Shown here piece by piece: positions 1,656 to 41,922 of a stretch of DNA of 64,000 bases (within the stretch, counting starts at the first letter, position 1; every line of letters starts with the position of its first letter). The DNA comes from Candidatus Fraserbacteria bacterium. GTDB taxonomy: Bacteria > Bipolaricaulota > Bipolaricaulia > RBG-16-55-9 > JAJCYT01. Both the position numbers and the translations under genes were made by a program. Below the pieces are notes generated by a model. That model was given only the letters and a program-made list of their open reading frames with translations, ran no database searches and was not told the origin of the DNA. The stretch is taken from positions 195,762 to 259,761 of the forward strand of contig JAJCYT010000018.1 in the NCBI GenBank assembly GCA_029262795.1. Reading direction: 5' to 3'.

Positions 1656-2014
1656 TCGTTGAACATTTAGACGCTTACGAAGTGGCTTTGGTGATTTGGA
1701 GCTTTTTATTCGGTTTGCTGGGACTCCAGGGTTTGATTTCGACTTTTCTGGAAGGAGAGGTCGATGCTGTAGGGACCCATCCCGAGCCGAAAAGCTCCCT
1801 CGTCGTCGTGGTGCTGATGGCCGCGCTCACCGCCGTAATTATGTGGAGCGCGTGGACGTTTACACAACAGCTCTTGTTGGGATCGTCTGAAACTCTGGGC
1901 TGGCTGGCGGCCTTAATCGCGTTGGCGATGTCTGCGCTGATTGGCCTCTATCGACGTTATTTTATTCCAGACGAAGTGATTGCTCAGGCGCGCGACGATG
2001 AAGTGCCCTGGTAA
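1652..2014 (+). CDS. small integral membrane protein (3 predicted TM helices)
   Basis: ATGA start/stop overlap with upstream gene; hydrophobic segments VALVIWSFLFGLLGL, LVVVVLMAALTAVIMW, LGWLAALIALAMSALIGL. Confidence 0.5.
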   Translation: MIVEHLDAYEVALVIWSFLFGLLGLQGLISTFLEGEVDAVGTHPEPKSSLVVVVLMAALTAVIMWSAWTFTQQLLLGSSETLGWLAALIALAMSALIGLYRRYFIPDEVIAQARDDEVPW

Positions 2015-2029
2015 AGGAGGGGAAGGCTT

Positions 2030-2635: not shown

Positions 2636-2646
2636 AGGAGGCAGCG

Positions 2647-6532: not shown

Positions 6533-6844
6533 ATGACCCAAGCACAAGCTCCAACCCGTACGGGAAGCCTGTCGCACAACCGGCGTGGCAAAAGCGATAT
6601 CCAATTACGACTTCGCACGATAGGCGGGCATCTTAATGGCATCGAGAAGATGATCGATCAGGATGCGTATTGTGTGGACATCCTGCGTCAGATCACGGCG
6701 GTGCAATCGGCCTTGTCTCAGGTTGCCTTGATTATGATGTCCAGCCACATGAATCACTGTGTCAAATCTGCCATTCAACGAGGCGAAGGCGATGACGAAA
6801 TTGAAGAACTGGTCGATCTTTTGAAATGCATGAAACATCTTTGA
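6533..6844 (+). CDS. CsoR/RcnR/FrmR-family metal-sensing transcriptional repressor
   Basis: LRTIGGHLNGIEKMIDQDAYCVDILRQITAVQSALSQVALIMMSSHMNHC matches the DUF156 helical-bundle pattern with Cys/His metal ligands. Confidence 0.75.
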   Translation: MTQAQAPTRTGSLSHNRRGKSDIQLRLRTIGGHLNGIEKMIDQDAYCVDILRQITAVQSALSQVALIMMSSHMNHCVKSAIQRGEGDDEIEELVDLLKCMKHL

Positions 6845-6866
6845 ATTGGATTGGCGGGTTTAAAAT

Positions 6867-6907
6867 AAGCATTCAGAAGCCCAAGTTGGCTTTGCTTCTG
6901 AATGCTT
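6867..6907. terminator. perfect 14-bp-arm hairpin between convergent csoR-like and cupredoxin genes (candidate bidirectional terminator)
   Basis: AAGCATTCAGAAGC-ccaagttggcttt-GCTTCTGAATGCTT; no strong U-run on either side. Confidence 0.45.
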
Positions 6908-7048
6908 ATGATGATCGGTAAAGATTGGTTGCCCTGCTGCTTAAATATCTTCTGATTGCAAAAATTAAAGGGCCAGATGATGGACGTATTGAGTGGCAGC
7001 ATTGGGCTGGGGCCGAGGAACCCTCGGCCCCAGCGATGTGATGAAATA

Positions 7049-7531
7049 TTAAACAACGATGAGTGGAACCTTCATACCAGCTTCGTAATGGCCGGTCACA
7101 AAGCAACCGATTTCCCATTCACCCTTCTTGTCTTCAGGAATCTGGATGAAGACTTCTGCACCTGATTCACCTTGGTGGGTTTCCACACCAAAGAAACCGT
7201 CCAACAACCACTCTTTGTAGTTGTGGTTTTCCAGGTCAGGGTCTCTACCGAACAGTGCATTATGGGCGACATCATCGTCCAGGTTAAAGAAATAGAGAGC
7301 GTATTTCTTGCCTGCTTCAAGCGTGATAGGAGCGTTGTTTTCGCCGCCAGGAATGCGGAAAAACATGGACCCCATTTCGATGAAAATTTCCTCATCCAAC
7401 CAAAGTTCGTGTGGTTCATCGGCTTGAGCTCGAACGTTTCTGGATTTCACCATTGTAGCGGCCAGTCCACCCAGAGCTGCTGCACCTGCGGTTTTGAGCG
7501 CTTTGCGGCGCGTCATTTTCTTTTCAGACAT
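7049..7531 (-). CDS. Tat-exported cupredoxin (blue copper) domain protein
   Basis: Twin-arginine signal MTRRKALKTAGAAALGGLAA; C-terminal type-1 Cu motif GCFVTGHYEAGM (C-x4-H-x4-M). Confidence 0.6.
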   Translation of the reverse strand: MSEKKMTRRKALKTAGAAALGGLAATMVKSRNVRAQADEPHELWLDEEIFIEMGSMFFRIPGGENNAPITLEAGKKYALYFFNLDDDVAHNALFGRDPDLENHNYKEWLLDGFFGVETHQGESGAEVFIQIPEDKKGEWEIGCFVTGHYEAGMKVPLIVV

Positions 7532-7690: not shown

Positions 7691-8362
7691 TCATGCCGCC
7701 AACCTATAGCCAAAGCCTTTGACTGTTAGGATCAGGCTGGGGCATTGCAAATTGGGTTCGATCTTATTGCGCAGCAGGTGAATATATTGCTTAACGTCAT
7801 TGGCGGTGGCTGCACTGTCCGGTGGCCAGAGGTGGTGGATAATCTCTTTGTCTGATAGAACTCGGCCAGGGTCTGCTGCCAACAATTTGAGCAGCTCAAA
7901 TTCCTTCGGTGCCAGGTGTATTTGATCGCCATTCCAGTCCACCGTTTTTGTTCGGTCATCGATGTGTAGATTGCCCACGCGCACCTCTTCGGGTGGCGGC
8001 GGGGTTTGCAGTCGGCGCAGCACGGCGGTCATACGGGCCTCTAACTCCCTGGGCTCGAATGGCTTGGTCAAGTAATCGTCTCCGCCCAGGGACAAGCCTT
8101 TGATTGCATCGTCCGTGCTATCGCACGCGGTGAGGAAGATCACCGGCACCTGGCTCTGAGCGCGGATGGCTTCCAATACGCTCCAACCATCCAGGCGCGG
8201 CAACATCACGTCGAGCAACACAATGTCGGGCGTGGCTTGCTTGAATCTTGTTAGTGCATCCACACCGTTGGTGGCTGTCACCACCTCGTGCCCTATCGCT
8301 TCAAAATAGGTCTGCAATAACTCCAATGCATCTGATTCATCTTCAATGACGAGCAGTTTCAT
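7691..8362 (-). CDS. OmpR/PhoB-family response regulator
   Basis: Receiver domain (KLLVIEDESD...LLDVMLP) plus winged-helix C-terminus (LTVKGFGYRL). Confidence 0.85.
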   Translation of the reverse strand: MKLLVIEDESDALELLQTYFEAIGHEVVTATNGVDALTRFKQATPDIVLLDVMLPRLDGWSVLEAIRAQSQVPVIFLTACDSTDDAIKGLSLGGDDYLTKPFEPRELEARMTAVLRRLQTPPPPEEVRVGNLHIDDRTKTVDWNGDQIHLAPKEFELLKLLAADPGRVLSDKEIIHHLWPPDSAATANDVKQYIHLLRNKIEPNLQCPSLILTVKGFGYRLAA

Positions 8363-9941
8363 GCAATCCTCCTAACGACGTTGGCAATGCCTGATGTGCC
8401 AAGGGCAAGGCGAACCAGAAGTGGCTTCCCTCACCAAGTGCGCTGTCAAAGGCCAGCGTTCCGCCCATCAGGTCAACGTAGCGATTGACCACAGTTAGCC
8501 CCAATCCCATGCCTTGACGATTACGACCCGTTCGTTCTGCGCGGGTGAACGGCTCAAACAGCCTGTTTTGATCCTGCAGCGCAACCCCGATGCCAGTGTC
8601 GGACACCGAGAAATAGATGGAATGATTCCGGCGTTCAGCAAAAACCCGTACTTGACCACAGTCGGTGTATTTGATTGCGTTGTCAATTAGATTCAATAAC
8701 ACCTGTCTCAACTTGGTCTTATCGGTTTTCACTGGCAGGCTGGGTGCGACGTCGACCACCAGCTTGAGCCCTTTATTTAATAGCAATGGCCGTTGGCTTT
8801 CGAGCACTTCGTCCACGACCTCGGCCGCATTGAAATACACGCAGTGCAGGGGTTCGCTGCTGCCTTCCAGCCTGGAAAACTCGATTAAATTCTCGATCAG
8901 CGCCAGCAAGTGTTTGCCCGCCCGCAGGATGGCATCTGTGTATTGATGACCCGCTTTACTGAGTGTGACATTGACCTCATCCCGCAGCAGACTGGCGAAC
9001 CCCAGCACGGAGTGTAGCGGGGTTCGCAATTCATGACTGATTGTGGTTAAGAAATCGGATTTGGCGTGGTTGGCTTTCTTTAACTCTACATTCGTACGCC
9101 TCAATATATCTCGCTGATAGACGATCGAGTGGGCCATTGTGTTGAACTCATTGGCCAGCATCTCAATTTCGTCTCCGCTGTGAATATTGGTGCGAACAGA
9201 CACCCTGCCGGATCCAAATGCTCGCATCGTGTCGCTTAAGTGCTCGATTGGTCCCAAGATCATGCGGAACAAAATCCAACTGCACAGGATGCCCAGCGCC
9301 ATCAACCCCAAGCTCAATCCGATGAGCAACAGCGATTCCTGTTGCAACTCCTGTTTCAGTGGTTGCAACGAAAATCCCACACGAACGTAACTGTCGCCGC
9401 CATTGATCAGGCGCTCGTACGCTTGCGGCGTGATGAAGCGGCCGTATTTCGATAGGGAGTTGCTGGCTTGCTCAAAAGGATAAATGATGTCGAGGTGGTT
9501 GGCATCTGCTTGACTGGGCTTAAACTCGGTGATCAGGATCTGTGTGGACGGTGGTTGCGTGGCCAGGTTGATGTCAAAACGCTGCTTTTGGGAAACCATG
9601 TTGCCATACAACACTATCTGTACATAACCCAGTTCCTCTGTCCACAAGTGTTCGGCCAACGTGTCCAGGTCGTGACCAACCTCAAAGATCAGTCCCTCCA
9701 CTGCTTCCTCAGCGGCGTGCCTAGCATACTTCAGCGCTTGCTGCTCGTATTGAGCCTTGAGTTGGTTATTTAAGCGCTGTGTGGTTAAGACCCCAAAAGC
9801 AACGGCCACAATCACACTGAACCCCAAGAACGCGAGCATAAATTTGTAGCGTAAGCTCAAGCGCATGGGGTCCCCTTCTCCAATCAACGGATCGCGGCCT
9901 GAAATCTGACCGCGACCACTGGTCGTTGCGGCCTTAACCAT
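8343..9941 (-). CDS. sensor histidine kinase
   Basis: HisKA H-box SHELRTPLHSVLGF, HATPase N/G boxes (LIDNAIKYT, GMGLGLTVV), two TM segments; likely start at internal MRLSLRYKF. Confidence 0.85.
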   Translation of the reverse strand: MVKAATTSGRGQISGRDPLIGEGDPMRLSLRYKFMLAFLGFSVIVAVAFGVLTTQRLNNQLKAQYEQQALKYARHAAEEAVEGLIFEVGHDLDTLAEHLWTEELGYVQIVLYGNMVSQKQRFDINLATQPPSTQILITEFKPSQADANHLDIIYPFEQASNSLSKYGRFITPQAYERLINGGDSYVRVGFSLQPLKQELQQESLLLIGLSLGLMALGILCSWILFRMILGPIEHLSDTMRAFGSGRVSVRTNIHSGDEIEMLANEFNTMAHSIVYQRDILRRTNVELKKANHAKSDFLTTISHELRTPLHSVLGFASLLRDEVNVTLSKAGHQYTDAILRAGKHLLALIENLIEFSRLEGSSEPLHCVYFNAAEVVDEVLESQRPLLLNKGLKLVVDVAPSLPVKTDKTKLRQVLLNLIDNAIKYTDCGQVRVFAERRNHSIYFSVSDTGIGVALQDQNRLFEPFTRAERTGRNRQGMGLGLTVVNRYVDLMGGTLAFDSALGEGSHFWFALPLAHQALPTSLGGLHETARH

Positions 9942-12111: not shown

Positions 12112-13107
12112 CTACTTCCAGAGCTCGGCCAGTGCCGCGTTGAAGTAAGGGAAAGCCACGTTTATTGGCGTGAGATCGGAACCGTAAAACATCAGATCTG
12201 TGGGTGCTCCCAGCAGTTCCACACCCTGACTTAGGTGGTCACTCAATGCACTCGATGCTTGTAGCAAGAGCGCATAATGGTCCCAGGCGACGATACCGTG
12301 AAGCAGGCCTTGCTCAAACAGCGCCTCCCAGTTTTCAGGAACGCCCAATGCCCCCAGCCGGATGTCACTGCCAAGCTCCTCATGAAGGTAGCTGACGATA
12401 TCGGACGCGCCCGTCACCAAGGAGTGGTCGGTCACAATAATGGCGGCTAAGTCTGGGTGATCCTTGTAGGCTTGAGACGTTTCGGTGCTGCCACTTTCCT
12501 GAACCACCGGATAGGCACCGCGGAAGTGGGGGCTGGTTTTGAGCCCTTCAAGCAGATCGGCCTGCAAAGGGTCGATAAAGTAGCCAACCACGGCAAATGG
12601 CCGCGGCCCAACATCCTCCATGGCCTGTGCCCAGGCTACGCCCAATTGGAAGGCATCTACCCCAAACAGAGGCAGGTCCAGACCTTCGATCCGGCGCACG
12701 GTTAAGGCCAAAGGCGTCTCATTCACCTCCACCAGTTCGCGCACGATGGGGGTTAAGGGGTCGGCCTCTTCCACCGGCGCTGCTGGCGTGAGCAAGATGG
12801 CTTCGAAGGCCAGGTCTCTCAATTCTTCCAGAGCTTCCACTTGTTGTGCAGACACCGACAGCCGCGCCAGCATTTCGCTAAGCGCGTCCCGCGTGCAAAA
12901 GGCTGCGGCCGGAGTTTCGTACAACCCCACCTCCATGTTCAGAGTTGTACTCAAAGTGCTTTGGACCGCTTCAAAATCTTGGGCCATCGCGTCTACGGAG
13001 TAGGTGACGATCCCCATGGCAATCACACTTTGGCCACCTGCCAGAGGTGCCAAACAGAGCAGCAGTAACAGGGCAACGACACAGCGTCTCATCGTTTCCT
13101 CCTTCAT
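12112..13107 (-). CDS. secreted periplasmic-binding-protein type 1 (LacI/sugar-binding fold)-like protein
   Basis: Signal peptide; paralogue of 13172..14149 and 16583..17668; PBP1-like pattern (IAMGIVTYSVD..., LLHGIVAWDHYALLLQAS). Confidence 0.5.
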   Translation of the reverse strand: MKEETMRRCVVALLLLLCLAPLAGGQSVIAMGIVTYSVDAMAQDFEAVQSTLSTTLNMEVGLYETPAAAFCTRDALSEMLARLSVSAQQVEALEELRDLAFEAILLTPAAPVEEADPLTPIVRELVEVNETPLALTVRRIEGLDLPLFGVDAFQLGVAWAQAMEDVGPRPFAVVGYFIDPLQADLLEGLKTSPHFRGAYPVVQESGSTETSQAYKDHPDLAAIIVTDHSLVTGASDIVSYLHEELGSDIRLGALGVPENWEALFEQGLLHGIVAWDHYALLLQASSALSDHLSQGVELLGAPTDLMFYGSDLTPINVAFPYFNAALAELWK

Positions 13108-13171
13108 AAGTGAAGGCAGCCCTGAGGAAAATCCCCAGGGCTGCCTTTGTTAGACCTTTGTCCCTTTTTCG

Positions 13172-14149
13172 TTACCAGAAACGTCCCACCCGGTTAGGTG
13201 TGTCCTGCGAATACGGATAGGAAGTGTGGTTAAACGAAGTTGACCTGCTGTAATACAGGACGTCCGGATAAAAATTGTCTGGCGTAACGCCATCCCGGAT
13301 CATCACTTTGGCCATCACCGACGCCTGCATCAGCGTGAGGTAATTGTCCCAAGTGAACACCCCGTGCAACAGTTTTTGATCAAACAGATCTTTCCAAGTG
13401 TCAGGTGCAAACACCGATCCCAGCTTAATCAGCCGGTCTGTACCTGCCGTGACAGCCTGAATGGCAGCTGCAGCGCCAGCAGCGTATCTCGAATGGGAAA
13501 CCATCACATACTCAATCGGTTCGGTTTCGTCGGCGATGGCTTGTGCGGTTTCTGCGCGGCCATCGCTCAAGGCTTCATAGAAACCTCCGAAGGAGTCTAA
13601 TTCCATGAGCGGTGAGATGAAGGCGTTTTGGGTTGTATCGGACAAATTACCGACCACCACAAAGCGTCCACCATCCTGTTGTTCGGCCATGACTTTACCC
13701 AGTTCAGCCATATCAACGCCGGCAAAGGGCAGGTTCAGTTCGGGGATGTTGCGACCGTGCAACACTACGGGAACCTGTTTTGCTGCATTGCTAATGGCAT
13801 TGCTCACCAAGCTGAAATCATCCACTGGAGTGATGACCAGTCCTTGCACACCTGCGGCAAGCAGGGAGTCAATCGCAGCGACCTGATCTGCGGCCGTGCT
13901 GGCTTCGCGGATGTCTACCAGATAATGCTGAGGTTCGACATCGGGCAGGTCACGCGAGCTGGCGTTGCCTTCTGGCACTGGCAATACTTGCAAATCACCA
14001 TTGATTGGGTTGGTGTAGAATTGAATCCCCCACACTTGACCGTCGATCTTGTAGGTCACCACACCAATGATAATGTCGGGCTGGCTTTGGGCGATCACCA
14101 AAGGGGCAACCAGAGCCGCCAGCAACATAAAGATGAAAAAGCGTTTCAT
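13172..14149 (-). CDS. secreted periplasmic-binding-protein type 1-like protein, 13 nt downstream of deiodinase-like selenoprotein gene
   Basis: IIIGVVTYKID...; AAIDSLLAAGVQGLVITPVDDFSLVSNAISNAAKQVPVV; RFVVVGNLSD; LLHGVFTWDNYLTLMQASV = PBP1 hallmarks. Confidence 0.55.
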   Translation of the reverse strand: MKRFFIFMLLAALVAPLVIAQSQPDIIIGVVTYKIDGQVWGIQFYTNPINGDLQVLPVPEGNASSRDLPDVEPQHYLVDIREASTAADQVAAIDSLLAAGVQGLVITPVDDFSLVSNAISNAAKQVPVVLHGRNIPELNLPFAGVDMAELGKVMAEQQDGGRFVVVGNLSDTTQNAFISPLMELDSFGGFYEALSDGRAETAQAIADETEPIEYVMVSHSRYAAGAAAAIQAVTAGTDRLIKLGSVFAPDTWKDLFDQKLLHGVFTWDNYLTLMQASVMAKVMIRDGVTPDNFYPDVLYYSRSTSFNHTSYPYSQDTPNRVGRFW

Positions 14150-14161
14150 GAGCTACCTCCC

Positions 14162-14953
14162 TTAAAAGCCTGGTTCCACACCGAAGATGTTGCTCAACAC
14201 TTCGTCGTGCTGTTCGGGGCGTTCCCAGTTCTTGAAGTGGATGATCCGGCCCTTGAGGTCGATGACCATGCCAAATTGTGGCCCCATGCCCATTGAACTT
14301 GACACAACGGTGGTCGTGGAGCTTGTCCGCTCGAGCAAGTTGATTTTGTCTTCCTCAATAAGGAGGATGTGGTTTTCAGGACGAACGCCGTTTTCTACGT
14401 AGGAGAAGGTTTTCTCCATCAACAACGCACGTTCACGTCGGGCAGCATAAGTTTCTACGTCTAAAACTTCTGACTGCGTGAATTCAGGATGGCGTTCGCG
14501 GCCGTATAGATTAACGATCACGAATGGGAATTCGATGAATTTTTCTGCAATCTTATTGTTCGGAACCCAGTTCCGTAAATAAGGTGGTCAGTACCAGCTG
14601 CCGTTGATCAGCAGTACAAATTTTTCACCGCGGAACTGGGACAGCGTAACGGGCACACCATCTCTGGTCAGCTGTGTGAAATCAGGCACGATCATGCCTG
14701 GCTGAACAACGTCAGGGCTACGGAAACCGTATCTTGGATCGAGTTCACCGGCTGCAACCAAACCTGGTGCGGTGTCGGTGAAGAAATTTGGATCGGCCAG
14801 ACCTGCCTCTGTGTAGTACTCTTCGGCGAGAGCCTGCCAGGCGTCCAACTCTCCTTCTTCATAATTTTGTGACAACACTGTGCTTTGGCCTAAAATCATA
14901 AAGGCCAGTGCAACGAGGGCTGCCAAGGTGAGAACTTTACGCATGTTGATCAT
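14162..14953 (-). CDS. periplasmic iodothyronine-deiodinase-like selenoprotein (Prx-like fold); in-frame TGA at 14588..14590 read as Sec
   Basis: ORF track splits at TGA (14588..14953 and 14162..14521, same frame). Read-through gives ...FVLLINGSWY-U-PPYLRNWVPNNKIAEKFIEFPFVIVNLYGRERHPEF.... Matches eukaryotic DIO active site FGSCT-U-PPF and downstream FLIIYIEEAHPSDGW pattern. Signal peptide present. Paralogue at 17683..18411 has TGA at same position. Confidence 0.65.
14561..14575 (-). other. candidate bacterial SECIS hairpin ~12 nt 3' of UGA
   Basis: mRNA CGGAAC-ugg-GUUCCG immediately downstream of UGA-CCA-CCU-UAU-UUA. Confidence 0.4.
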
Positions 14954-15418: not shown

Positions 15419-16168
15419 TCACCCCTCCGCTGGGCCTGGGTATTTTTCACGGGCCATGGCTGCATCGTGGTCGGTCAGCACTGGGCTGTGGCAAAGATCG
15501 GTGTACATGACGCTTCGAAACTCGCAACCGGGATCACTTCGATTAATGTGCGAGCCGTTGTCAGGCGGTGGCATAAATCCCAGCGCCCGGCCAACCAGAT
15601 ACAGCAGCGTGCGCTGTAAATCCTCTGTGTATAACTCGGTGTCGTTGTCGTAATAATATTCGAAGTGGTTGCCCTCAATCACGATATCGGCTTCAATCAG
15701 TGTCGCCGGCGAGCCGTTGGCCTGCACACATCCTTCATCTATCTGTGCAGCATTGGCGCAACGGATGAATGCCTTGCCCTGGATAAAGCCTCCCACATCC
15801 TCCGTCACGCTGACCGCAATCACGTTGGTCAAGTCTTTTCCATTGTGGCATCCTGCCGCCTCACACGTTGTGGTGGTAGGCATTTCCCCTTCGTAGATCA
15901 GCCGGATGCGCGTCATTGAAATATTGTTCCAGGTGGAAAATGCATCATGAATGAAATCTTCGAGGTCGTCTGTGGCGTACCTAAGGCTGGCGTAGAAGCG
16001 GACGGGAAAATCCGGCCAACTGACATTGACCTCCCCAGCCTCAGACTGAGCCAGCAGGCTGTCGACCGGCAGGAACAGCAACGATGCAAGGCAAACAATG
16101 AGGGTTAGCTTACGCATATATTTTTGCCTCCTTGTGGGTGGTTTTGGCATCGTCACTACATCACTCAA
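15419..16168 (-). CDS. secreted matrixin (peptidase M10)-like protein with degenerate zinc motif
   Basis: Signal peptide MRKLTLIVCLASLLFLPV (likely real start ~16117); N-terminal AFSTWNNISMTRIRLIYEGE resembles matrixin; expected HExxHxxGxxH replaced by LVGRALGFMPP. Confidence 0.45.
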   Translation of the reverse strand: MSDVVTMPKPPTRRQKYMRKLTLIVCLASLLFLPVDSLLAQSEAGEVNVSWPDFPVRFYASLRYATDDLEDFIHDAFSTWNNISMTRIRLIYEGEMPTTTTCEAAGCHNGKDLTNVIAVSVTEDVGGFIQGKAFIRCANAAQIDEGCVQANGSPATLIEADIVIEGNHFEYYYDNDTELYTEDLQRTLLYLVGRALGFMPPPDNGSHINRSDPGCEFRSVMYTDLCHSPVLTDHDAAMAREKYPGPAEG

Positions 16169-16582
16169 GTCAGTGTAAAATTGTCCACTTCTTATTTAAT
16201 AATTGAAGTATCTTCTCAAGTTGGCAAAATCAAATGACCCATATCAGTCGCTCAATTGATGACCATCATATTTACACGATAAATGCCAATGGCATCTGCC
16301 AGAACCGGATTGTGCCAAGAGAAACGGTATAAGCACCCAACCACCCTCTGTTTATAAGCTCGGGATAAAACCATTCTTATTTTGCTATTTTATGATTCAC
16401 CCGGATTTGAGACACACAAGGTAAAGCGCCTGCAAAAAGCAAGCGCTTTACTTCCGAGGAGATACAAAAAGGCAGTGTCGCAAAAACGATTTCTAGAAAT
16501 GCTTAGATTCTTGTGACACTGCCAACAAACCGAACCAGCGGGTCGCCCCCTGGTTTTATGGCTATCTTTTTCCAGGCTTGGT

Positions 16583-17668
16583 TTAACCAAACCACCAATA
16601 CCAGATCATGCCGAACTGACGTTCGCTCTCATAAGGGAAACGCACGTAAGCGGGCAATCCGCCACCAATGGCACCTGTTCCCAGCCACATGATGGACACA
16701 TAATTGTCGTTCAACGGCGTGCCATCGAGCAAATGCACCTTGAGGGCAACAAGACCATCCAACAGCATTGGATAGTAGTCGGGTTGTACGTTGCCTTTGA
16801 TACGTTTTTGCTGGATCAGGCTGGTAAAGTTTTCCGGTGCGCCAAACACCCCCACCGAGATCTTGCGTTCGGAATCGATCACGGCTTCAACGATGTTTGC
16901 GGTCAACTGATGATCCATCACCGCAATGCCCACCAAGGCTTCGTTTGCTGCAATCAGAGCCGCAGTTTCTGAAGCATCCGTGGTGACCACGACTTCCAGC
17001 AAGTGATCGCCAACGGCTTCCTTAAAGCCTTCGATCATGCCCATTTGCAAAGGATCATCCAAGCTGGTGGCAAACAAGGCCACTTTGTCTTCGTCAGCTC
17101 GGTTTCCGAATGCTCCGGCACCATTGAGTGGTTCTTGAGGAGCAGATAACGCCATCCAGCCACGGCCCCAAGCGTTGCCAAATGCAAATGGTTCAACCCC
17201 AACAAATGCGGCATTGTTAATGCCAGGGATGTCCCGATAAGCAAACGCCATGGGAATGCCGGCGCGGATGGTGCGTTCCACTTCGTCGCGCAGAGCATTC
17301 ACATTGGGAACCGGCGTCAACAAGATACCATCGACACCCAGCTCTCGAAGTTCTTGCAACGCGGCAATTTGGGCTTCTGCCGTATCGGCGTTTCTAACGA
17401 CCAACTCGACCAGCGGTTTATTTTGCACGGCTGGGGTTTCCAGCACCCCGCCGCCAGTTTCGCCATAGGCACCCTGAATCGGCAACACGTTGATGTCTCC
17501 CAACAGCTTGCCGGGGTCAGCCAGCCTGGCTGTGGACATGGCTAGAAAATCCACCTGATAGGTGATCACTCCCAACACCATCGTCCCGTTTTCCTGGGCC
17601 ACATTACTAACCGTGCTGGCGCTCACCAAAACAGCTATTGCCAGCATGAGTATAAAGATACGTTTCAT
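16583..17668 (-). CDS. secreted periplasmic-binding-protein type 1-like protein, 12 nt downstream of second deiodinase-like selenoprotein gene
   Basis: MVLGVITYQVD; AAEAQIAALQELRELGVDGILLTPVPNVNALRDEVERTIRAGIPMAFAYRD; ISVGVFGAPE. Confidence 0.55.
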   Translation of the reverse strand: MKRIFILMLAIAVLVSASTVSNVAQENGTMVLGVITYQVDFLAMSTARLADPGKLLGDINVLPIQGAYGETGGGVLETPAVQNKPLVELVVRNADTAEAQIAALQELRELGVDGILLTPVPNVNALRDEVERTIRAGIPMAFAYRDIPGINNAAFVGVEPFAFGNAWGRGWMALSAPQEPLNGAGAFGNRADEDKVALFATSLDDPLQMGMIEGFKEAVGDHLLEVVVTTDASETAALIAANEALVGIAVMDHQLTANIVEAVIDSERKISVGVFGAPENFTSLIQQKRIKGNVQPDYYPMLLDGLVALKVHLLDGTPLNDNYVSIMWLGTGAIGGGLPAYVRFPYESERQFGMIWYWWFG

Positions 17669-17682
17669 GGATGATCACCTCC

Positions 17683-18411
17683 CTATAATCCGGGTTCCAG
17701 GCCGAAAATCTGGCTGAGAACTTCGTCCAGTTTTTCCGGTCGTTCCCAAATCTGCGATTCAACGATATGTCCGGTTGGATCGATGATCCAAGCGCCTTGT
17801 GGCCGCAGCCCATAGAGGGCGGTTGCCACGGTGGCCATGGTTGGCTGTTCGTGCCCGACATCGGGGATTTGCCCCACCGGGAAGCTTTCATCGATGAGCA
17901 GATAACGGTTGGCTGGGAATGCCTGTGATGTGAGGTTCAGCGTCAGCATCATCAGGCGCGCCCGTTCAAGGCGTTCTGCATAGGTTTCGATGAGCCATTC
18001 TTCATCGGTTACAAATTCTGGATGACGTTCACGACCGTAGATCGACAAGATCACAACTGGGAAGTCGGCAAATTTCTGACCTAATTTATCCATAGGAAGC
18101 ACGTTCCTGAGGAATGGTGGTCAGTACCAGCTCCCAGTTTCTATTACAACAAACGAATTGTCCAGGTATTGGCTCAGGCTGAATTCAATCCCGTTGATAT
18201 CCAACAGGGTGAAATCCGGCCCCAACATCCCTGGCATAATCGCTGAAAAGTCATTGAATTGATTACCCAACAGCGCATTTTCATCAACGCCTTCAACATA
18301 AAAGGCTTGCGCATTGGCAATCCAGGTGTCCATATCGCCCTGAGCTGAAGTAATGCTGCTGAACAGCGCCAGTGCCAGTGCAAAAATGGACATCATTCTG
18401 AAGACTTTCAT
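17683..18411 (-). CDS. periplasmic iodothyronine-deiodinase-like selenoprotein; in-frame TGA at 18121..18123 read as Sec
   Basis: Split ORFs 18121..18411 and 17683..18102 in same frame. Read-through gives ...FVVIETGSWY-U-PPFLRNVLPMDKLGQKFADFPVVILSIYGRERHPEF.... Signal peptide MMSIFALALALFSSITSA. Hairpin AGGAAgcacgUUCCU (18094..18108) after UGA. Confidence 0.65.
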
Positions 18412-18536
18412 TGAGAGACACCACCTTTCACATAATGGTTGAAATTAAAATTTAGATTAAAACTGAACTTTACAAAGATCATTCTCCAACGATCACCTCC
18501 TGTTTTTGCTAGTCGGCTCATTCTGTAAAACTTCTT

Positions 18537-19652
18537 TCAGTTCACATGGTTGACCAAGGGCGATCCCAAGTGTTCATTCAGAATTTGGATCGCCGTGTTG
18601 TCAAAATCTTCACCGCGGTAAAGGATCACACCATTGATATCCAGCAATAGAAACACAAAGTCACCCGAAGCCTGATAGGCCCAGGCCACATCCCCCAACT
18701 CATCTTTTACAACGGCATAGGTAATCCCGGCACTTCTAATAAAATCCTTGAGCACCTCGATTGGCGAATACTGGTCGATGCCCAGTACGGTCAACTTTTC
18801 CGGGCCATAATCATCCAACAAATCCTGGGCAAACAAACCTGGCACCAGCGAGCCACATTCCACGCATCCCGTCCCCCAAAACGACAGCAGGATGAGTTTG
18901 CCTCGATTGTAAAAATCAGACAAGGTCAGGGGATTGCCTTCCACATCGTTTAAGGTAAAATCGATGGCTTGTAATCCTGCCTGATTGCCTATCTCAGGCA
19001 GGGCGGCCATGTTGGCCTCTTCCAGCAGTTGCCCGACCAGATCAAAACCACTTCTATAATCCAGGTCTTCTTCGGTGGGACCACCATATCCTGTGTCCCG
19101 AAATCGTATGATTCCATTGGCATCAAGCACCAAGAGGGTGGGATGCCCTTCTGTGGTATCCAGGTTGTATTGCGCATAGATTTCAGCGAAATATCTTCCC
19201 ACACCAATGTCCATGGAAAGCCAGGGAAAAGTGACCCCCAGTTCTCTTTTGAAGGCATGTAAGTACCACTCAGGGTCGCCGGTGGAAATTGCAAGCCATT
19301 GCACGTTTTGTCCGTTGTATCTTCCATCGATTTCTTTTTGCATCTCCGGCAGCCATGCCGATGGGCAGGATGGTCAGGTGGCAGCAAAGAAGAAGTACAA
19401 CACAGTCACATCATACTGCTCGACTTGCTCCTGCAGTTGAATGGGGTCTCCGCCGCCCAACTGAGGCAGGGTGAAATCGGGCGCTTGCTGACCCACGTCA
19501 TACCCGATTTCGACTGAGACATTTGAAGCTTCTGCATAAGTGATGATTGGATCAGTCGTGGTTGTGGCCGTCAGCCCAATCAGAACAACCCACAAGAAGG
19601 CCTTTGTCCATTTAAGTTTTGTTGTGTACTTAAACATGATCGTTCCTCCCAA
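18537..19652 (-). CDS. two-domain periplasmic thioredoxin-like selenoprotein (U-P-S-C in domain 1, WGTGCVECG in domain 2); in-frame TGA at 19374..19376
   Basis: Split ORFs 19374..19652 and 18537..19343 in same frame. Read-through gives ...VLYFFFAAT-U-PSCPSAWLPEMQKEIDGRY.... Paralogue of 5345..6493. Hairpin CGGCA-uggc-UGCCG (19347..19360 region) follows UGA. Confidence 0.6.
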
Positions 19653-19681
19653 AATTTTTGAATGACCTCATCCCTGGGTCT

Positions 19682-20467
19682 TCAAAAATCAATCACGACA
19701 TTTTGCCAATATTGGTCCTGCAACCAGAGTGGCAGTTGCATGGGGTTGTCTGCATGGCAAGCGAAACAGTCCACACCTGTTATAAAGTCGTCTTTGACAA
19801 AACGGTTTGAAATTTCGATTGCCTCATGGGTGGCCGGAACGGAGGTCTGATGGCAGCCCGGACAACCAAACAGATCGCGCCAAGTGGGGTCCATCAGCGC
19901 ACGCGGTGTGAACCTGGAATGGCAATTGGCACAGGTGGTCTTTTCGACATAACTGGAAATCGTGACGCTGTCATCGTTTTGTTCAATTTGAAATTCATTA
20001 TGGCAAAAGGTGCATTCCGTGCCAAAATCCATAATCTTCTGCTTCTGATGCACCTGATGGTGGTTCTTTTCTTCAGTGATTTCGATGGCGCCATCTTCGG
20101 TAGGCATTTTTCGCATCACGGTTTCCTGGCTATAGATGTCGCTGTGACACGTCAGACAGGTTTGTCCCAATTTCGCAACATCTTCAGGGACTTCACTCAC
20201 CGTGTTGAGGTTAAGGTGAAATTGGGCCACCTGATCAAATAGTGTTGCCACTGCCGGATGAGGGCCAGGGGTGCTTGAGCTGGTTGAAATTACCGAGCCC
20301 GTTATCAACACGTCTTCCAGGCTGTGCCCGTCTGAAGGAAAGTTCAGCGGCGGCGCTGCCTGTGCAATTTGTATCAGAAACAAACTCATCAAGATAAATG
20401 CAATCCCTCGTAAACGTTTCATTTTTCTGTTCATTGTGGTTTTTTTTGTTTTCATGATGACCTTCAA
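19682..20467 (-). CDS. pentaheme c-type cytochrome (secreted/periplasmic)
   Basis: Five CxxCH motifs: CLTCH, CTFCH, CANCH, CPGCH, CFACH; signal peptide GIAFILMSLFLIQIAQA. Confidence 0.8.
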   Translation of the reverse strand: MKVIMKTKKTTMNRKMKRLRGIAFILMSLFLIQIAQAAPPLNFPSDGHSLEDVLITGSVISTSSSTPGPHPAVATLFDQVAQFHLNLNTVSEVPEDVAKLGQTCLTCHSDIYSQETVMRKMPTEDGAIEITEEKNHHQVHQKQKIMDFGTECTFCHNEFQIEQNDDSVTISSYVEKTTCANCHSRFTPRALMDPTWRDLFGCPGCHQTSVPATHEAIEISNRFVKDDFITGVDCFACHADNPMQLPLWLQDQYWQNVVIDF

Positions 20468-20677: not shown

Positions 20678-22093
20678 TCAGGCATGATTTATGGGAAGCG
20701 AAAAAACAAAGGTTGTTCCCTGTTTTAATTCACTTTGCACCCAAATCTGCCCATCCTGTGCAACAATGAGTTGCTTTGCAATGGCCAGGCCCAAACCGGT
20801 GCCGCCACTTTTTTGCCCTCTCACTTTGTCCGCACGCCAAAAACGATCAAACACGTATGGTAATTCATCTGCTGCGATGCCAGGACCTGTATCAGATATT
20901 TCCACCTGAACCTGCGAGACTTCTGATGTTACACCAATCGATATTTGTCCATTTGGAGGCGTGTAGTGAGATGCGTTTTTGAGCAGGTTCCAAAGCACCT
21001 GGGTCGTGCGGTCAGGGTCCAGATCTATGATCAGCTCTTGTGGGAGATCTATAACAAGATTGATGTTTTTCTTTTTCAGCAACGGTTTCAGGGTTTCCAC
21101 CACCTGATTCAGCAAGCGCACAAAGTCTGTGGGTTGTTTTTCGATGGATAACTTTCCGGCTTCAGCAAGCGACAGGTTCCTTAAATCTTCAACCAAGCGC
21201 CCCATCCGCAGGCTTTCTTCATACAGGGAAGCAAATGTCTCAACAGTGGGTTCATAGACGTTTGTTTGAAGCGCGTACAAATCCCCTTGCAAGATGGTGA
21301 GAGGGGTGCGTAATTCGTGGGTGATGTCTGCAAGAAAATGCTGTCGCAGTTTCTCGGAATGATCAAGTTTATGATTCATCTTATTAAAGGCCTCGCCGAT
21401 TTGGCCGAGCGCATCCGCAGAGCGGATCTCAATCTGCTGTTGTTTCTCTCCGTCGGCAATGCTCAACATGGCATTGCCCAACTGACGCAATGGCCGTGTC
21501 ATTTGACGAACCAACAGCACCCCCAACAGCAACGCCACCATGCCGGCAATGATGCCTGCAAGCAAAATAGCACGATCAACTGAACTTAAGAAATCCGTTT
21601 CCAGATTTGTGCGACGGCCCAAAGTCGCTTCTGATAACAAGGTGCCGACCTGCTGGTTTTGCTGTCCTTGTGGTCCCTGTCTGCCTTGCTGTCCCTGCTG
21701 ACCGCGGAAAAAAATTGACGACCCTTGACTCAGCACACTGGGTGCCAATGTTTGTCCGACCAACGTTTCATCTGAAGCCATGAGAACGGTGCCGGAGGTA
21801 TCCGCCAAAATGAAATTATCGCCCAGCGAGCCATACACATTACTTACCTCTACTCGCAACTGCTCTAACGCATGCCACCCCCTATGTTGGGCATAATGTT
21901 GTTTAAACAGGGAGACCATCCCCTGAATATGCAATTGGCTGTTCTGTTTGCTGAACTCCTGAAAATTCATGTCAAGCGTCATATTGAGGATCAGGTAAAG
22001 GGCGATGGCGCCCACTGCAATAATCGCAAAAAATGTGCCGAAAATCTTCATGCCAAAAGGCGCACGGCGATTGATTTCTTGCAATTGGCGCAT
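20678..22093 (-). CDS. sensor histidine kinase (HAMP-HisKA-HATPase)
   Basis: H-box THELRTPLTILQGDL; N/G boxes LLKNASHYT, GGTGLGLAIAKQL; N-terminal TM segments. Confidence 0.85.
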   Translation of the reverse strand: MRQLQEINRRAPFGMKIFGTFFAIIAVGAIALYLILNMTLDMNFQEFSKQNSQLHIQGMVSLFKQHYAQHRGWHALEQLRVEVSNVYGSLGDNFILADTSGTVLMASDETLVGQTLAPSVLSQGSSIFFRGQQGQQGRQGPQGQQNQQVGTLLSEATLGRRTNLETDFLSSVDRAILLAGIIAGMVALLLGVLLVRQMTRPLRQLGNAMLSIADGEKQQQIEIRSADALGQIGEAFNKMNHKLDHSEKLRQHFLADITHELRTPLTILQGDLYALQTNVYEPTVETFASLYEESLRMGRLVEDLRNLSLAEAGKLSIEKQPTDFVRLLNQVVETLKPLLKKKNINLVIDLPQELIIDLDPDRTTQVLWNLLKNASHYTPPNGQISIGVTSEVSQVQVEISDTGPGIAADELPYVFDRFWRADKVRGQKSGGTGLGLAIAKQLIVAQDGQIWVQSELKQGTTFVFSLPINHA

Positions 22094-22105
22094 CAGTTCA
22101 TTCCT

Positions 22106-22954
22106 TCATTCAGAAGATCTGTCTGCAAATTTGTACCCCATGCTGGGCACAGTCAAAATGTATTTCGGGTTGTGAGGGTCATCGCCAAGTTTTCGGCGTA
22201 GATTTTTAATATGCGGATCAATCGCGCGAACCGTCATCGCATACGTGGTTCCTGTAAGCGCATCCAACAGGCTTTCTCTTGAGTGAACCCGACCAGGGTG
22301 TGCCGCCAGAGTCACAAGCAATTGGAATTGCATCGGCGTCAAATCGAGTAGCCGCCCCTGCCAATGCGCTTCCACGCGGTCCAAGTCCAATCGAAGTTCA
22401 CCCACCTGAATCGTATTTGGCACGGATTGATCTTCAATCCGGCGCAGCACGGCACGCACACGGGCCACCAGCTCTTTGGGATGAAACGGCTTTGACACGT
22501 AGTCGTCGGCGCCCAACTCCAGTCCGACAACGCGATCTTCGGCATCAGATCGTGCAGTTAGCATAATGATGGGCACGGTGGATTGTTTTCGGATTTCGCG
22601 GGCGACATCATAGCCGTCCAAATCGGGCAGCATGAGGTCTAAAAGGATCAAGTCAGGAGATGACATCTTGAAAACGGTGAGCGCTTCCTTGCCATCGTAG
22701 GCAGCCACGACACTAAACCCAGCCTGAATCAAAAAGCTTTTGACCAGATTAACAATTTTTGCCTCATCGTCTACGACGAGGATTTTCTTTGTCATGGTTG
22801 TTATACAGTACAACGCACTCTCATAAAAACAAAACTTGAAACAGGGCGCGCCGTTTCCTTTCTCGTAAAGATGAAACCAGGCACAATGCTTGTTTGCAGT
22901 GTGCCACTTTAGGCGAAAAAGATTGACACCCACAAGCCTGCGCGTGGGTGTCAA
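22106..22954 (-). CDS. OmpR-family response regulator (real start probably internal MTKKILVVDDE, ~22795)
   Basis: Receiver (ILVVDDEAKIV...LLDLMLPDLDG) plus winged-helix (LTVPSMGYKF); the 53-aa N-terminal extension in the ORF track lacks receiver features. Confidence 0.85.
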   Translation of the reverse strand: MTPTRRLVGVNLFRLKWHTANKHCAWFHLYEKGNGAPCFKFCFYESALYCITTMTKKILVVDDEAKIVNLVKSFLIQAGFSVVAAYDGKEALTVFKMSSPDLILLDLMLPDLDGYDVAREIRKQSTVPIIMLTARSDAEDRVVGLELGADDYVSKPFHPKELVARVRAVLRRIEDQSVPNTIQVGELRLDLDRVEAHWQGRLLDLTPMQFQLLVTLAAHPGRVHSRESLLDALTGTTYAMTVRAIDPHIKNLRRKLGDDPHNPKYILTVPSMGYKFADRSSE

Positions 22955-41918: not shown

Positions 41919-41922
41919 ACTC

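What the first reader, a model, noticed from the sequence alone, without database searches (positions are those of the whole stretch)
16583..18411. Second, segmentally duplicated deiodinase-like selenoprotein + PBP1-like pair
Same architecture as 13172..14953. The selenoprotein 17683..18411 (...ETGSWY-U-PPFLRNVLP..., signal peptide, AGGAAgcacgUUCCU hairpin after UGA) is followed 12 nt later by a PBP1-like gene. The UGA sits at the aligned position in the two diverged paralogues, which rules out random nonsense mutation. Duplication of the pair as a unit argues the two proteins function together.
Basis: partly seen in the sequence, partly recalled or inferred. Interest (0 to 1): 0.75.

Follow-up and report, generated by a model that had tools for sequence, protein, structure and literature searches.

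The report
Selenoprotein plus orphan binding-protein operon
The flagged region is a real two-gene operon: a secreted selenocysteine enzyme distantly related to thyroid-hormone deiodinases, followed by a transporter-less periplasmic binding protein; this uncurated pairing recurs as several old paralogous copies per genome in a few uncultured bacteria.

Summary
On the minus strand, 18411..17683 is one reading frame interrupted only by TGA at 18123..18121 (…ETGSWY-U-PPFLRN…). A PBP-fold gene (17668..16583) starts 14 nt after its stop codon. The paralogous pair at 14953..13172 has its TGA at the aligned codon.

Evidence that the TGA encodes selenocysteine:
- Every relative with DNA in hand keeps TGA at this codon.
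- All 34 N-terminal fragment clusters in public gene calls stop exactly there.
- No Cys form was found. The only full-length non-Sec relative has Ser.
- A hairpin about 12 nt after the UGA fits the bacterial SECIS model and shows compensatory changes.
- Codons downstream are under purifying selection (73 synonymous-only versus 14 non-synonymous changes).

The mature enzyme has no cysteine. Its fold is closest to TlpA/ResA. Its active-site segment matches Dio3 and Dio2 best, and its two most remote sequence relatives pass Pfam's deiodinase threshold. The family has no Pfam or NCBIfam model.

Every copy whose 3' flank is known is followed by a divergent CUT2-type PBP with no ABC transporter nearby. 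Multihaem cytochromes, TlpA-like UxxC proteins and NiFe hydrogenase recur nearby. The duplication is ancient (Sel 40%, PBP about 27% identity). The substrate is unknown. My best guess is an extracytoplasmic small-molecule reductase that uses the PBP as its specificity subunit.

The parts
17683..18411 (-). Sel2: exported, Cys-free thioredoxin-fold selenoprotein (242 aa plus stop), …ETGSWY-U-PPFLRN…, …IYGRERHPE…
   Evidence: single in-frame TGA. TGA conserved in all relatives; no Cys in 10 full-length members. AF2 model (pLDDT 81) has a TlpA/Prx/Dio-type fold; purifying selection after the UGA.
18121..18123 (-). Sec codon (UGA) of Sel2
   Evidence: It aligns with the Sec position (Cys in the crystallised mutant) of Dio3 and Dio2 and with the first Cys of TlpA-like CxxC.
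18094..18108 (-). SECIS-type hairpin AGGAA-CGUGC-UUCCU, 12 nt after the UGA; lower stems extend it to about 18076..18124
   Evidence: -16.9 kcal/mol, z -3.4; 96% of cells paired across 13 sequences, two pairs with compensatory changes, 0/500 shuffles. It fits the bSECIS constraints quoted in PMC13188914.
16583..17668 (-). PBP2: exported type-I periplasmic-binding-protein fold, Cys-free, with no transporter partner; start codon 14 nt after the Sel2 stop; the GGGAGGUGA Shine-Dalgarno overlaps that stop
   Evidence: Peripla_BP_4, 3e-16; distant relative of CUT2 sugar-binding proteins; a PBP gene follows every Sel relative.
16421..16451 (-). Terminator-like hairpin (13 pairs) downstream of PBP2; probable 3' end of the operon
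14162..14953 (-). Sel1: paralogous selenoprotein (263 aa), Sec codon at 14588..14590, hairpin CGGAAC-UGG-GUUCCG at 14561..14575
13172..14149 (-). PBP1: partner of Sel1, starting 12 nt after the Sel1 stop
12112..13107 (-). PBP0: third PBP paralogue following PBP1. The same Sel-PBP-PBP triad occurs in L004 and L009. This type keeps one conserved Cys (FC[TA]R).
18537..19652 (-). Double TlpA-like protein with a candidate Sec (TGA at 19374..19376, FFFAAT-U-PSC) in domain 1 and CVEC in domain 2; candidate reductant of Sel2. Sits upstream of the Sel gene in the window, L001 and L005.
19682..20467 (-). Five-haem c-type cytochrome at the head of the cluster; candidate electron donor
   Evidence: The same gene order occurs in L001 and L005. 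It lies directly upstream of a Sel gene in L004. It is fused to a Sel-like domain in P0009.

Best explanation
The region is a co-transcribed two-gene module for the cell envelope.

Gene 1 encodes an exported thioredoxin-fold enzyme whose only redox-active residue is a selenocysteine. The Sec is decoded from UGA with the help of a SECIS hairpin about 12 nt downstream. The protein belongs to an uncurated family that appears always to use Sec. It sits between TlpA/ResA and the iodothyronine deiodinases, and keeps the deiodinase active-site signature (GS-x-x-U-PPF … Y-x-x-E-x-HP).

Gene 2 is probably translationally coupled to gene 1. It encodes an exported, Cys-free type-I periplasmic binding protein with no ABC transporter.

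Proposed mechanism (inferred, not shown):
1. The PBP captures a small-molecule substrate and acts as the specificity subunit.
2. The selenolate attacks an electrophilic atom of that substrate (halogen, peroxide oxygen or chalcogen), as in deiodinases and peroxiredoxins.
3. The resulting Se-X or selenenic intermediate cannot be resolved internally, because the enzyme has no Cys. It is reduced by the neighbouring TlpA-like UxxC/CxxC protein or the multihaem cytochrome, which may in turn be fed by a periplasmic NiFe hydrogenase.

The module was duplicated long ago. Each Sel has diverged together with its own PBP, which suggests several substrate specificities per cell.
For: Shown:
- In-frame TGA at the same codon in both window paralogues and in 13 distinct relatives, plus two divergent subfamilies.
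- All 34 N-terminal fragment clusters in a 5.8-billion-protein database end at …GSW[YF], that is, at the UGA.
- An exhaustive HMMER search of 1.84 billion representatives with the C-terminal profile found 12 hits, nearly all fragments starting just after the UGA, and no Cys form.
- Hairpin: 96% of cells paired; CG to AU changes (3 sequences) and GC to CG changes (4 sequences) on both sides, none one-sided; 0/500 shuffles reach the score. Unrelated stems sit at the same spacing in the divergent subfamilies.
- Downstream of the UGA, 73 synonymous-only versus 14 non-synonymous codon differences against L001.
- No Cys in 10 full-length members.
- The active-site segment hits Dio3 and Dio2 first.
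- Distant relatives P0009 and P0013 pass the PF00837 threshold.
- A PBP gene directly follows Sel in 13 of 13 relatives with a known 3' flank, and in L004 module 4 and L017.
- No ABC permease or ATPase was seen in the window or in the locus stretches whose ORFs or called genes I listed.
- Sel and PBP identities co-vary (Mantel r 0.46, p 0.03).
- A cytochrome c lies upstream in the window, L001, L005 and L004 module 4, and is fused to a Sel-like domain in P0009.
- NiFe hydrogenase lies next to the modules in L004 and L009.
Against: - No selA, selB, selD or tRNA-Sec lies in the 64-kb window; the rest of the genome could not be read.
- No expression or protein data exist.
- The PBP ligand is unknown, and PBP-enzyme contact is inferred only from gene order.
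- The best structural matches are protein-disulfide reductases (TlpA/ResA), not small-molecule enzymes.
- Pfam and NCBIfam scores for deiodinase, Prx and Redoxin are all near or below threshold for the window proteins.
- The NCBIfam 'deiodinase_rel' hit is no better than for ordinary TlpA paralogues.
- Electron transfer from haem to a selenenyl species has no precedent that I know of.
- The Mantel test rests on 7 pairs.
Confidence: 0.55

Rival explanations
1. Sel is a TlpA/ResA-type protein reductase acting on a protein client, for example in cytochrome c maturation or repair of oxidised envelope proteins. The PBP-fold protein would be its client or scaffold rather than a ligand carrier.
For: The best structural and profile matches are DsbE, ResA, TlpA and Etrx. 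The neighbourhood is rich in TlpA-like proteins, a glutaredoxin, DsbA and VKOR (L011), and c-type cytochromes. The PBP0-type paralogues keep a single conserved Cys.
Against: Sel has no second Cys or Sec, so it cannot perform dithiol-disulfide exchange alone. Mature PBP1 and PBP2 have no Cys, so they cannot be disulfide clients. The CxxC motif that defines TlpA is replaced by U-P-P-[FY]. Several co-diverging Sel-PBP pairs per genome fit substrate diversification better than a housekeeping role.
Confidence: 0.18
2. Sel is a one-Sec peroxidase (Prx, BCP or GPx-like) that detoxifies peroxides in the envelope. The PBP is co-transcribed but mechanistically unrelated, or only a sensor.
Against: The Prx Pro at -7 is absent. 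All scores are below Pfam thresholds. The invariable PBP linkage across every subfamily, and three to four modules in one genome, are not expected of a generic peroxidase. GSHPx is hit by only 2 of 10 members at E of 0.13 or worse.
Confidence: 0.14
3. The pair handles a metal or metalloid (Cu, Hg, As or Se). Sec and the invariant His would bind it, Sco-like, and the PBP would shuttle it.
For: A CsoR/RicR-like repressor and a Tat-exported ORF with a cupredoxin-like Cys/His/Met motif (by eye; no family hit) lie at 6533..7531. An ArsP permease and a Zip transporter lie near the third pair, L014. JGI names one fragment SCO1/SenC. One home metagenome was used as a reference dataset in a hydrothermal-sediment study. 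Many recently described bacterial selenoproteins are metal-linked (PMC13188914).
Confidence: 0.1
4. The TGA is a true stop, a pseudogene lesion or a sequencing error, and there are simply two short ORFs.
For: Public gene callers annotate two unnamed ORFs of 96 and 136 aa. No Sec machinery lies in the window.
Against: The same TGA occurs in independent assemblies from many samples. It falls at the catalytic position of the fold. A covarying hairpin follows it, and the downstream frame is under purifying selection.
Confidence: 0.01

Closest known systems
Iodothyronine deiodinase family (Pfam PF00837), including the bacterial 'deiodinase-like' selenoproteins of Zhang et al. 2005 (PMC1088965)
   Different: The window proteins score 14 bits or less (cutoff 27). 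Tyr replaces the Thr before the Sec. There is no proximal or distal Cys. They are exported soluble proteins, not membrane-anchored dimers. The listed bacterial deiodinase-like family has UxxC; this one has U-P-P-[FY]. It is always paired with a PBP gene. No thyronine-like substrate is expected.
TlpA/ResA/DsbE extracytoplasmic thiol-disulfide oxidoreductases (cd02966), including their Sec forms (UxxC, UGC)
   Different: The second Cys of CxxC is missing, and so is every other Cys. The N-terminal helix (…LDAWQAIAETYY…) and the YGRERHPE motif are family-specific.
1-Cys peroxiredoxins, BCP and glutathione peroxidases
   Different: No PxxxT Pro. The GPx Gln/Trp/Asn tetrad was not found at the matching positions by eye. 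All hits are below threshold.
Sao selenoprotein operons (SaoB, SaoX, SaoT, SaoP; listed in PMC13188914)
   Same: Operons that combine thioredoxin-like selenoproteins with periplasmic substrate-binding proteins.
   Different: In Sao the binding proteins themselves carry the Sec, and an ABC permease is present. Here the PBP has neither Sec nor Cys and no transporter, and no NCBIfam Sao model is hit.
Transporter-independent PBPs that serve other proteins (TorT-TorS, LuxP-LuxQ, ChvE-VirA) - from my own knowledge
   Same: A type-I PBP encoded without a transporter, next to its protein partner.
   Different: The partner here is an enzyme rather than a histidine kinase. The flanking kinases are not conserved in the other loci.

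Membership tests
Bacterial selenoprotein (Sec decoding) | In-frame UGA conserved at one codon among homologues | tested here: met
   Both window paralogues, 13 distinct relatives, and L004 module 4 and L017. All 34 N-terminal fragment clusters end at that codon.
Bacterial selenoprotein (Sec decoding) | bSECIS: upper stem of 4-16 bp, apical loop of 3-9 nt with G in its first two positions, 16-37 nt between UGA and loop, MFE of -7.5 kcal/mol or lower (PMC13188914) | tested here: met
   Sel2: 5-bp stem, loop CGUGC, 17 nt, -16.9 kcal/mol. Sel1: 6-bp stem, loop UGG, 18 nt, -11.9 kcal/mol. Compensatory changes at two pairs.
Bacterial selenoprotein (Sec decoding) | Translation continues past the UGA (downstream frame under purifying selection) | tested here: met
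   73 synonymous-only versus 14 non-synonymous codon differences against L001, and 44 versus 20 against L002.
Bacterial selenoprotein (Sec decoding) | selA, selB, selD and tRNA-Sec present in the genome | not testable with these tools
   None lies in the 64-kb window, and the rest of the genome is not available. Indirect support: four candidate Sec genes in the window.
Bacterial selenoprotein (Sec decoding) | Cys-containing homologues exist (true of nearly all Sec families) | tested here: not met
   No Cys form among the 12 hits in 1.84 billion representatives or the 34 N-terminal clusters. The only full-length non-Sec relative has Ser.
Iodothyronine deiodinase (PF00837) | Score above the Pfam gathering threshold (27 bits) | tested here: not met
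   Sel2 scores 14 bits, E 0.032. 8 of 10 members hit, with a best E of 6.8e-5.
Iodothyronine deiodinase (PF00837) | Active-site signature GS-x-x-U-PPF and the Tyr/Glu/His of the relay (…IYIEEAHP…) | tested here: met
   The alignment to Dio3 and Dio2 covers both motifs; these are the top two PDB hits for the segment. S94, Y125, E128 and H130 are invariant. Exception: Tyr replaces the Thr before the Sec.
Iodothyronine deiodinase (PF00837) | Dio-specific insertion (loop-D, alphaD, betaD) after strand 2 | tested here: inconclusive
Iodothyronine deiodinase (PF00837) | Homology traceable to bona fide members | tested here: met
   The family profile hits P0009 (E 1e-8) and P0013 (E 9e-4). These score 33.5 and 29.1 bits on PF00837.
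Iodothyronine deiodinase (PF00837) | Reductive dehalogenase activity | not testable with these tools
   Needs biochemistry.
TlpA/ResA/DsbE thiol-disulfide oxidoreductases | Thioredoxin fold with an N-terminal hairpin; exported | tested here: met
TlpA/ResA/DsbE thiol-disulfide oxidoreductases | CxxC (or UxxC) redox pair | tested here: not met
   The motif is U-P-P-[FY]. There is no Cys anywhere in 10 members.
Peroxiredoxin (AhpC-TSA) | PxxxT/SxxC motif and a score above the Pfam threshold | tested here: not met
   Ser is present at -3, but there is no Pro at -7. Sel2 scores 24.2 bits against a cutoff of 26.
Type-I periplasmic binding protein (Peripla_BP_4) - for the partner gene | Score above the Pfam threshold; homology to solved PBPs | tested here: met
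   PBP2 scores 60.2 bits and PBP1 46.4 bits (cutoff 35.1). The profile hits CUT2 sugar-binding proteins at 6e-13. PBP0 is below threshold (18.5 bits).
Type-I periplasmic binding protein (Peripla_BP_4) - for the partner gene | Encoded with ABC permease and ATPase genes | tested here: not met
   None was seen in the window or in the parts of L004, L005, L009, L014 and L017 whose ORFs or called genes were listed.

The most novel reading that the evidence does not exclude
The Sel-PBP modules are a selenium-based, corrinoid-independent system for reductive dehalogenation, or another two-electron reduction, of small organic molecules outside the cytoplasm. An orphan PBP presents the substrate to a deiodinase-type selenolate. 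Electrons come from H2 through a periplasmic NiFe hydrogenase, multihaem cytochromes and UxxC TlpA-like proteins. That would be a new respiratory or detoxifying module, and the bacterial ancestor-type of deiodinase chemistry.
Probability: 0.1. Interest if true: 0.9.

Novelty: new variant of a known kind. Interest (0 to 1): 0.62.

Why it matters
Trx-fold selenoproteins are a known kind, with more than 110 prokaryotic families listed. This family is absent from Pfam and NCBIfam, and public gene calls split it into two unnamed ORFs.

It has an unusual combination of features:
- It appears always to use Sec, with no Cys form found, whereas nearly all selenoenzymes have more abundant Cys homologues.
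- The mature protein has no other cysteine.
- It carries a deiodinase-type active-site signature in a bacterium.
- It is invariably coupled to a transporter-less binding protein.
- It occurs in several co-diverging copies per genome, next to cytochromes and hydrogenase.

This offers a tractable way to ask what deiodinase-type selenium chemistry does in bacteria, a question open since 2005. It may also be an example of a PBP recruited as an enzyme's substrate-recognition subunit. In practical terms, gene callers and annotation pipelines currently miss the family.

Tried and rejected
I used the fragment after the UGA instead.
- AF2 on the single sequence gave an unusable model (pLDDT 44).
- A 46-row MAFFT alignment misplaced C-terminal fragments onto the N-terminal half (A10) and was discarded. 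A balanced 18-row alignment (A11) worked.
- The afdb50 fold library was unavailable.
- The word-indexed search with the full-length profile added only one sequence.
- The NCBIfam 'deiodinase_rel' hit (27.5 bits, cutoff 250) looked supportive, but the window's plain TlpA paralogues score the same, so I did not count it.
- GPx-like: only 2 of 10 weak hits.
- Recent segmental duplication: rejected. Only two DNA patches of 70-75% identity remain, and third codon positions are 40% identical.
- PBP as sensor for the flanking histidine kinases: the kinases are absent from L004, L005 and L009.
- Literature searches for the motif (UPPF, WYUPP, SWYU) and for the sample accessions gave nothing useful beyond the link to a hydrothermal reference metagenome.
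- The source organism could not be identified. The only hints are a T9SS-type tail on a giant ORF and the record title 'uncultured Thermotogae bacterium' for the one related MAG.
Full report
**1.

Reading the minus strand, 18411..17683 is a single 243-codon frame broken only by TGA at 18123..18121: …NSFVVIETGSWY-U-PPFLRNVLPMDKL…. It starts with a signal-peptide-like segment (MKVFRMMSIFALALALFSSITSA/QG).

Fourteen nucleotides after its TAG stop, and overlapped by a GGGAGGUGA Shine-Dalgarno, begins a 361-aa ORF (17668..16583). This ORF hits Pfam Peripla_BP_4 at 60 bits against a cutoff of 35.

The earlier pair has the same layout: Sel1 at 14953..14162 with TGA at 14590..14588 (…LLINGSWY-U-PPYLRN…), then PBP1 at 14149..13172 after 12 nt. 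The two selenoprotein candidates are 40% identical (E 2e-54), and the TGA falls at the aligned codon. The PBPs are about 27% identical, and a third PBP paralogue (13107..12112) follows PBP1.

Two small corrections to the finding. The 12-nt spacing belongs to the other pair; this pair has 14 nt. On the mRNA the hairpin loop reads CGUGC, not gcacg.

**2. The TGA is a selenocysteine codon**

(a) Conservation of the codon.
- I recovered relatives from Logan, JGI, ENA and GTDB assemblies. All 13 distinct genes with DNA in hand have TGA at this codon.
- Two more divergent subfamilies also have it: L004 module 4, GSGFT-U-PPFRR, and L017, TGNAS-U-KGYL.
- A profile of the N-terminal halves found 34 clusters among 5.8 billion proteins. 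Every one is 92-120 aa long and, in the rows shown, ends at …GSW[YF], so the gene callers stopped at the UGA.
- An exhaustive HMMER search of 1.84 billion representatives with the part after the UGA found only 12 proteins, nearly all fragments that begin just after the UGA.

(b) The hairpin.
- A hairpin starts 12 nt after the UGA: AGGAA-CGUGC-UUCCU in Sel2 (18108..18094) and CGGAAC-UGG-GUUCCG in Sel1 (14575..14561). Folding z-scores are -3.4 and -2.8.
- Both satisfy the published bacterial SECIS constraints: stem of at least 4 bp, loop of 3-9 nt with G in its first two positions, 16-37 nt from the UGA to the loop, and MFE of -7.5 kcal/mol or lower (PMC13188914).
- Across 13 sequences, 96% of cells pair. 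Two pairs change on both sides (CG to AU three times, GC to CG four times) and none changes on one side only. No shuffle out of 500 reaches the observed score, and sliding the partners destroys the signal.
- The GC-to-CG swap couples a synonymous Arg change (CGG to CGC) to a Pro-to-Ala replacement (CCG to GCG), which is what selection on RNA pairing predicts.
- The divergent subfamilies have unrelated stems at about the same spacing: GAGGAU/AUCCUC and GGGACG/CGUCCC.

(c) Translation continues past the UGA. Over the 145 codons after the UGA, Sel2 differs from L001 at 73 codons synonymously and at only 14 non-synonymously. Against L002 the counts are 44 and 20.

(d) No codon reassignment. TGA ends 16 of 33 long ORFs in the window.

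(e) Position in the fold. The U aligns with the catalytic Sec of Dio3 and Dio2 and with the first Cys of TlpA-type CxxC.

The one defining item I could not test is the Sec machinery. No tRNA-Sec or sel gene lies in these 64 kb. However, a scan for in-frame TGA flanked by coding sequence found four credible Sec genes in the window. The other two are double TlpA-like proteins with U-x-x-C.

**3. What kind of protein it is**

None of 10 full-length members contains a cysteine, so the Sec is the only redox-active residue.

*Sequence families.* Pfam gives only near- or sub-threshold hits. Redoxin and AhpC-TSA are hit by 10 of 10 members (best E about 3e-6). T4_deiodinase is hit by 8 of 10 (best 6.8e-5; Sel2 itself 14 bits against a cutoff of 27). 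NCBIfam has no model for the family. Its best hit, 'deiodinase_rel' at 27.5 bits against a cutoff of 250, is matched equally by the ordinary TlpA paralogues of the window, so I give it no weight.

*Structure.* With an 18-row alignment, AlphaFold2 gave a usable model (pLDDT 81, pTM 0.81).
- Foldseek agrees, with Dio3 giving the highest query TM-score, 0.53.

*Active site.* When only the 71-residue active-site segment is searched, the two best PDB hits are Dio3 and Dio2. GS-W-Y-U-PPF aligns with GS-C-T-U-PPF, and IYGRERHPE aligns with IYIEEAHPS. Those positions include the Ser, Tyr, Glu and His that the Dio2 and Dio3 structures assign to the proton relay and substrate site (PMC11592359). In this family S94, Y125, E128 and H130 are invariant. 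The Thr before the Sec is replaced by Tyr.

*Remote relatives.* The two most remote hits of the family profile are P0009 and P0013, and both pass the PF00837 threshold (33.5 and 29.1 bits). P0009 is a full-length protein with Ser at the U position and an N-terminal three-haem cytochrome domain.

*Conclusion.* This is a distinct branch of the TlpA/Prx/deiodinase fold group, linked by transitive homology and active-site signature to the deiodinases. It is not a member of PF00837 by that family's own criterion, and not a TlpA, because it has no CxxC.

**4. The PBP partner and the wider module**

All 13 relatives whose 3' flank is present are followed directly by a PBP-fold gene, and the two divergent subfamilies are too.

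A profile of 11 of these PBPs finds CUT2-family monosaccharide-binding proteins as distant relatives: 5hsg at 6e-13, YtfQ at 2e-12, and ribose-binding proteins. The first 70 or so positions, which hold a family-specific insertion, are unmatched. PBP1 and PBP2 have no Cys. The PBP0 type keeps one (FC[TA]R). No ABC permease or ATPase gene was seen in the window or in the stretches of the longer loci that I listed.

Two gene orders recur:
- Five-haem cytochrome c, then a double TlpA-like protein with U-x-x-C and C-x-x-C, then Sel, then PBP. This occurs in the window (20467..16583), L001 and L005.
- Sel, PBP, PBP. This occurs in the window (14953..12112), L004 and L009.

The one related MAG in GTDB (record title 'uncultured Thermotogae bacterium') carries four modules. 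Three are on one contig around a periplasmic NiFe hydrogenase operon, and one of these has a cytochrome c directly upstream of Sel. A hydrogenase maturation protease and a neighbouring ORF in the position of the hydrogenase large subunit also abut the L009 triad.

A third pair, next to an ArsP permease and a small thioredoxin, comes from the same run series as the window's own genes (L014).

A 13-pair terminator-like hairpin lies about 130 nt after PBP2, at 16451..16421.

**5. Age of the duplication**

Between the two window segments only two DNA patches of 70-75% identity remain, and both lie inside the Sel genes. Third codon positions are 40% identical. Counterparts of each gene arrangement, with their distinctive neighbours, exist in other lineages. 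Across seven Sel-PBP pairs the two identity matrices correlate (Mantel r 0.46, exact permutation p 0.03).

So the pair was duplicated as a unit, but long ago, and each enzyme has since diverged with its own binding protein.

**6. How it probably works**

*Shown.* Sec decoding signals; export signals on both proteins; operon structure; obligatory Sel-PBP linkage; recurrent cytochrome, TlpA-like and hydrogenase neighbours.

*Inferred.* The PBP binds a small molecule and acts as the specificity subunit. The selenolate attacks an electrophilic atom, as in deiodinases (Se…I) and peroxiredoxins. With no resolving Cys, the Se-X intermediate must be reduced from outside. The adjacent U-x-x-C/C-x-x-C protein or the cytochrome is the obvious candidate; the cytochrome is fused to a Sel-like domain in P0009.

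I put about 0.55 on this general model. The rivals:
- A TlpA-like protein reductase, 0.18. This is hard to square with a Cys-free enzyme and Cys-free partners.
- A plain peroxidase, 0.14. This does not explain the invariable, co-diverging PBP.
- Metal or metalloid handling, 0.10. The supporting contexts are not conserved.
- An artefact, 0.01.

The boldest reading still allowed is a selenium-based extracytoplasmic dehalogenating or reducing module driven by H2. I give it about 0.1.

**7. Novelty**

Bacterial deiodinase-like selenoproteins have been known since the Sargasso Sea survey (PMC1088965). The 2026 catalogue of more than 110 families lists them as PF00837 with UxxC (PMC13188914).

I found no entry there with a U-P-P-[FY] motif or a PBP partner. 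There is also no Pfam or NCBIfam model, and public gene calls split the gene into two unnamed ORFs.

The family is rare: 12 clusters at 50% identity among 1.84 billion representatives. Unusually, no Cys form was found. I rate it a new variant of a known kind, of clear interest to selenoprotein specialists, but with the function unproven.

Noticed in passing
window 18537..19652 (-), TGA at 19374..19376: A third candidate selenoprotein gene: a double TlpA/AhpC-like protein reading …YFFFAAT-U-PSC… in domain 1 and …GTGCVEC… in domain 2. Gene callers split it. The same TGA occurs in L001 (…FFFAAT-U-PSC) and L005 (…FFLAAS + stop). A local hairpin CGGCA-UGGC-UGCCG lies 13 nt after the UGA, but the 57-nt fold is not better than shuffles (z -0.5).
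   Followed up: partly
window 5345..6493 (+), TGA at 5633..5635: A fourth candidate selenoprotein: a paralogue of the double TlpA-like gene (…IYFFLAAS-U-PTCPSAWLPEIQ…). It lies downstream of a DOMON protein and a Rieske/cytochrome b pair (471..3945).
   Followed up: partly
window 12112..13107 (-) and about 13115..13146 (-): The third PBP paralogue (PBP0) has no selenoprotein of its own. This type keeps one conserved Cys (FC[TA]R) in three genomes. A GC-rich hairpin of about 10 bp (GGCAGCCCUG…CAGGGCUGCC), without a clear U-tract, lies between PBP1 and PBP0.
   Followed up: partly
L004 14059..17017: A fourth, divergent module in the related MAG: multihaem cytochrome c, then a selenoprotein with GSGFT-U-PPFRR and LYISEPHPE (matches no Pfam family), then a PBP. 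L017 holds another subfamily with TGNAS-U-KGYL followed by a PBP 2 nt later.
   Followed up: partly
L004 9201..12359 (-); L009 6473..7392 (-): A periplasmic NiFe hydrogenase (Tat-signal small subunit, large subunit, maturation protease) sits among the Sel-PBP modules in L004. In L009 a maturation protease and one further ORF adjoin the triad. The L004 large subunit ends in …DPCMACAAH, so it is a Cys form, not a Sec form.
   Followed up: no
P0009 / L016 769..2052: A natural fusion of a three-haem cytochrome c domain with a Sel-like domain that has Ser at the Sec position. It passes the Pfam T4_deiodinase threshold and has no PBP gene next to it.
   Followed up: partly
window 15419..16168 (-): A 249-aa exported ORF between the two Sel-PBP pairs has no Pfam or NCBIfam match. 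L009 has a zincin-like (HEWGHNLGLLHDD) secreted protein near its triad. Whether the two are related was not tested.
   Followed up: no
window 6533..7531: A CsoR/RicR-like metal-sensing repressor (6533..6844, +) and a Tat-signal protein with a cupredoxin-like C…H…M motif (7049..7531, -; by eye, no family hit) lie beside the redox cluster. Two OmpR-type two-component systems flank the cluster (7691..9941 and 20678..22954).
   Followed up: partly
window 38676..53284: A probable integrated element or defence island: an SNF2/PLD helicase, an Eco57I-type methylase-endonuclease, an SMC-like ATPase, GmrSD, a Rep-like protein and a large serine recombinase. It ends at the window's only tRNA (tRNA-Gln, 53211..53284, -).
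   Followed up: no
window 27840..38441 (+): A giant 3533-aa ORF with PD40, LamG, CARDB and beta-propeller repeats and a C-terminal T9SS-type sorting tail (CHU_C/Por_Secre_tail). This hints at an organism of the FCB group.
   Followed up: no
L014 6606..11825: A third Sel-PBP pair from the same sequencing-run series as the window (48% GC against 45%). It lies after an ArsP-type permease, a small thioredoxin and a YwiC-like protein. It may belong to the same organism on another contig (NCBI contig of 212,099 bp).
   Followed up: no
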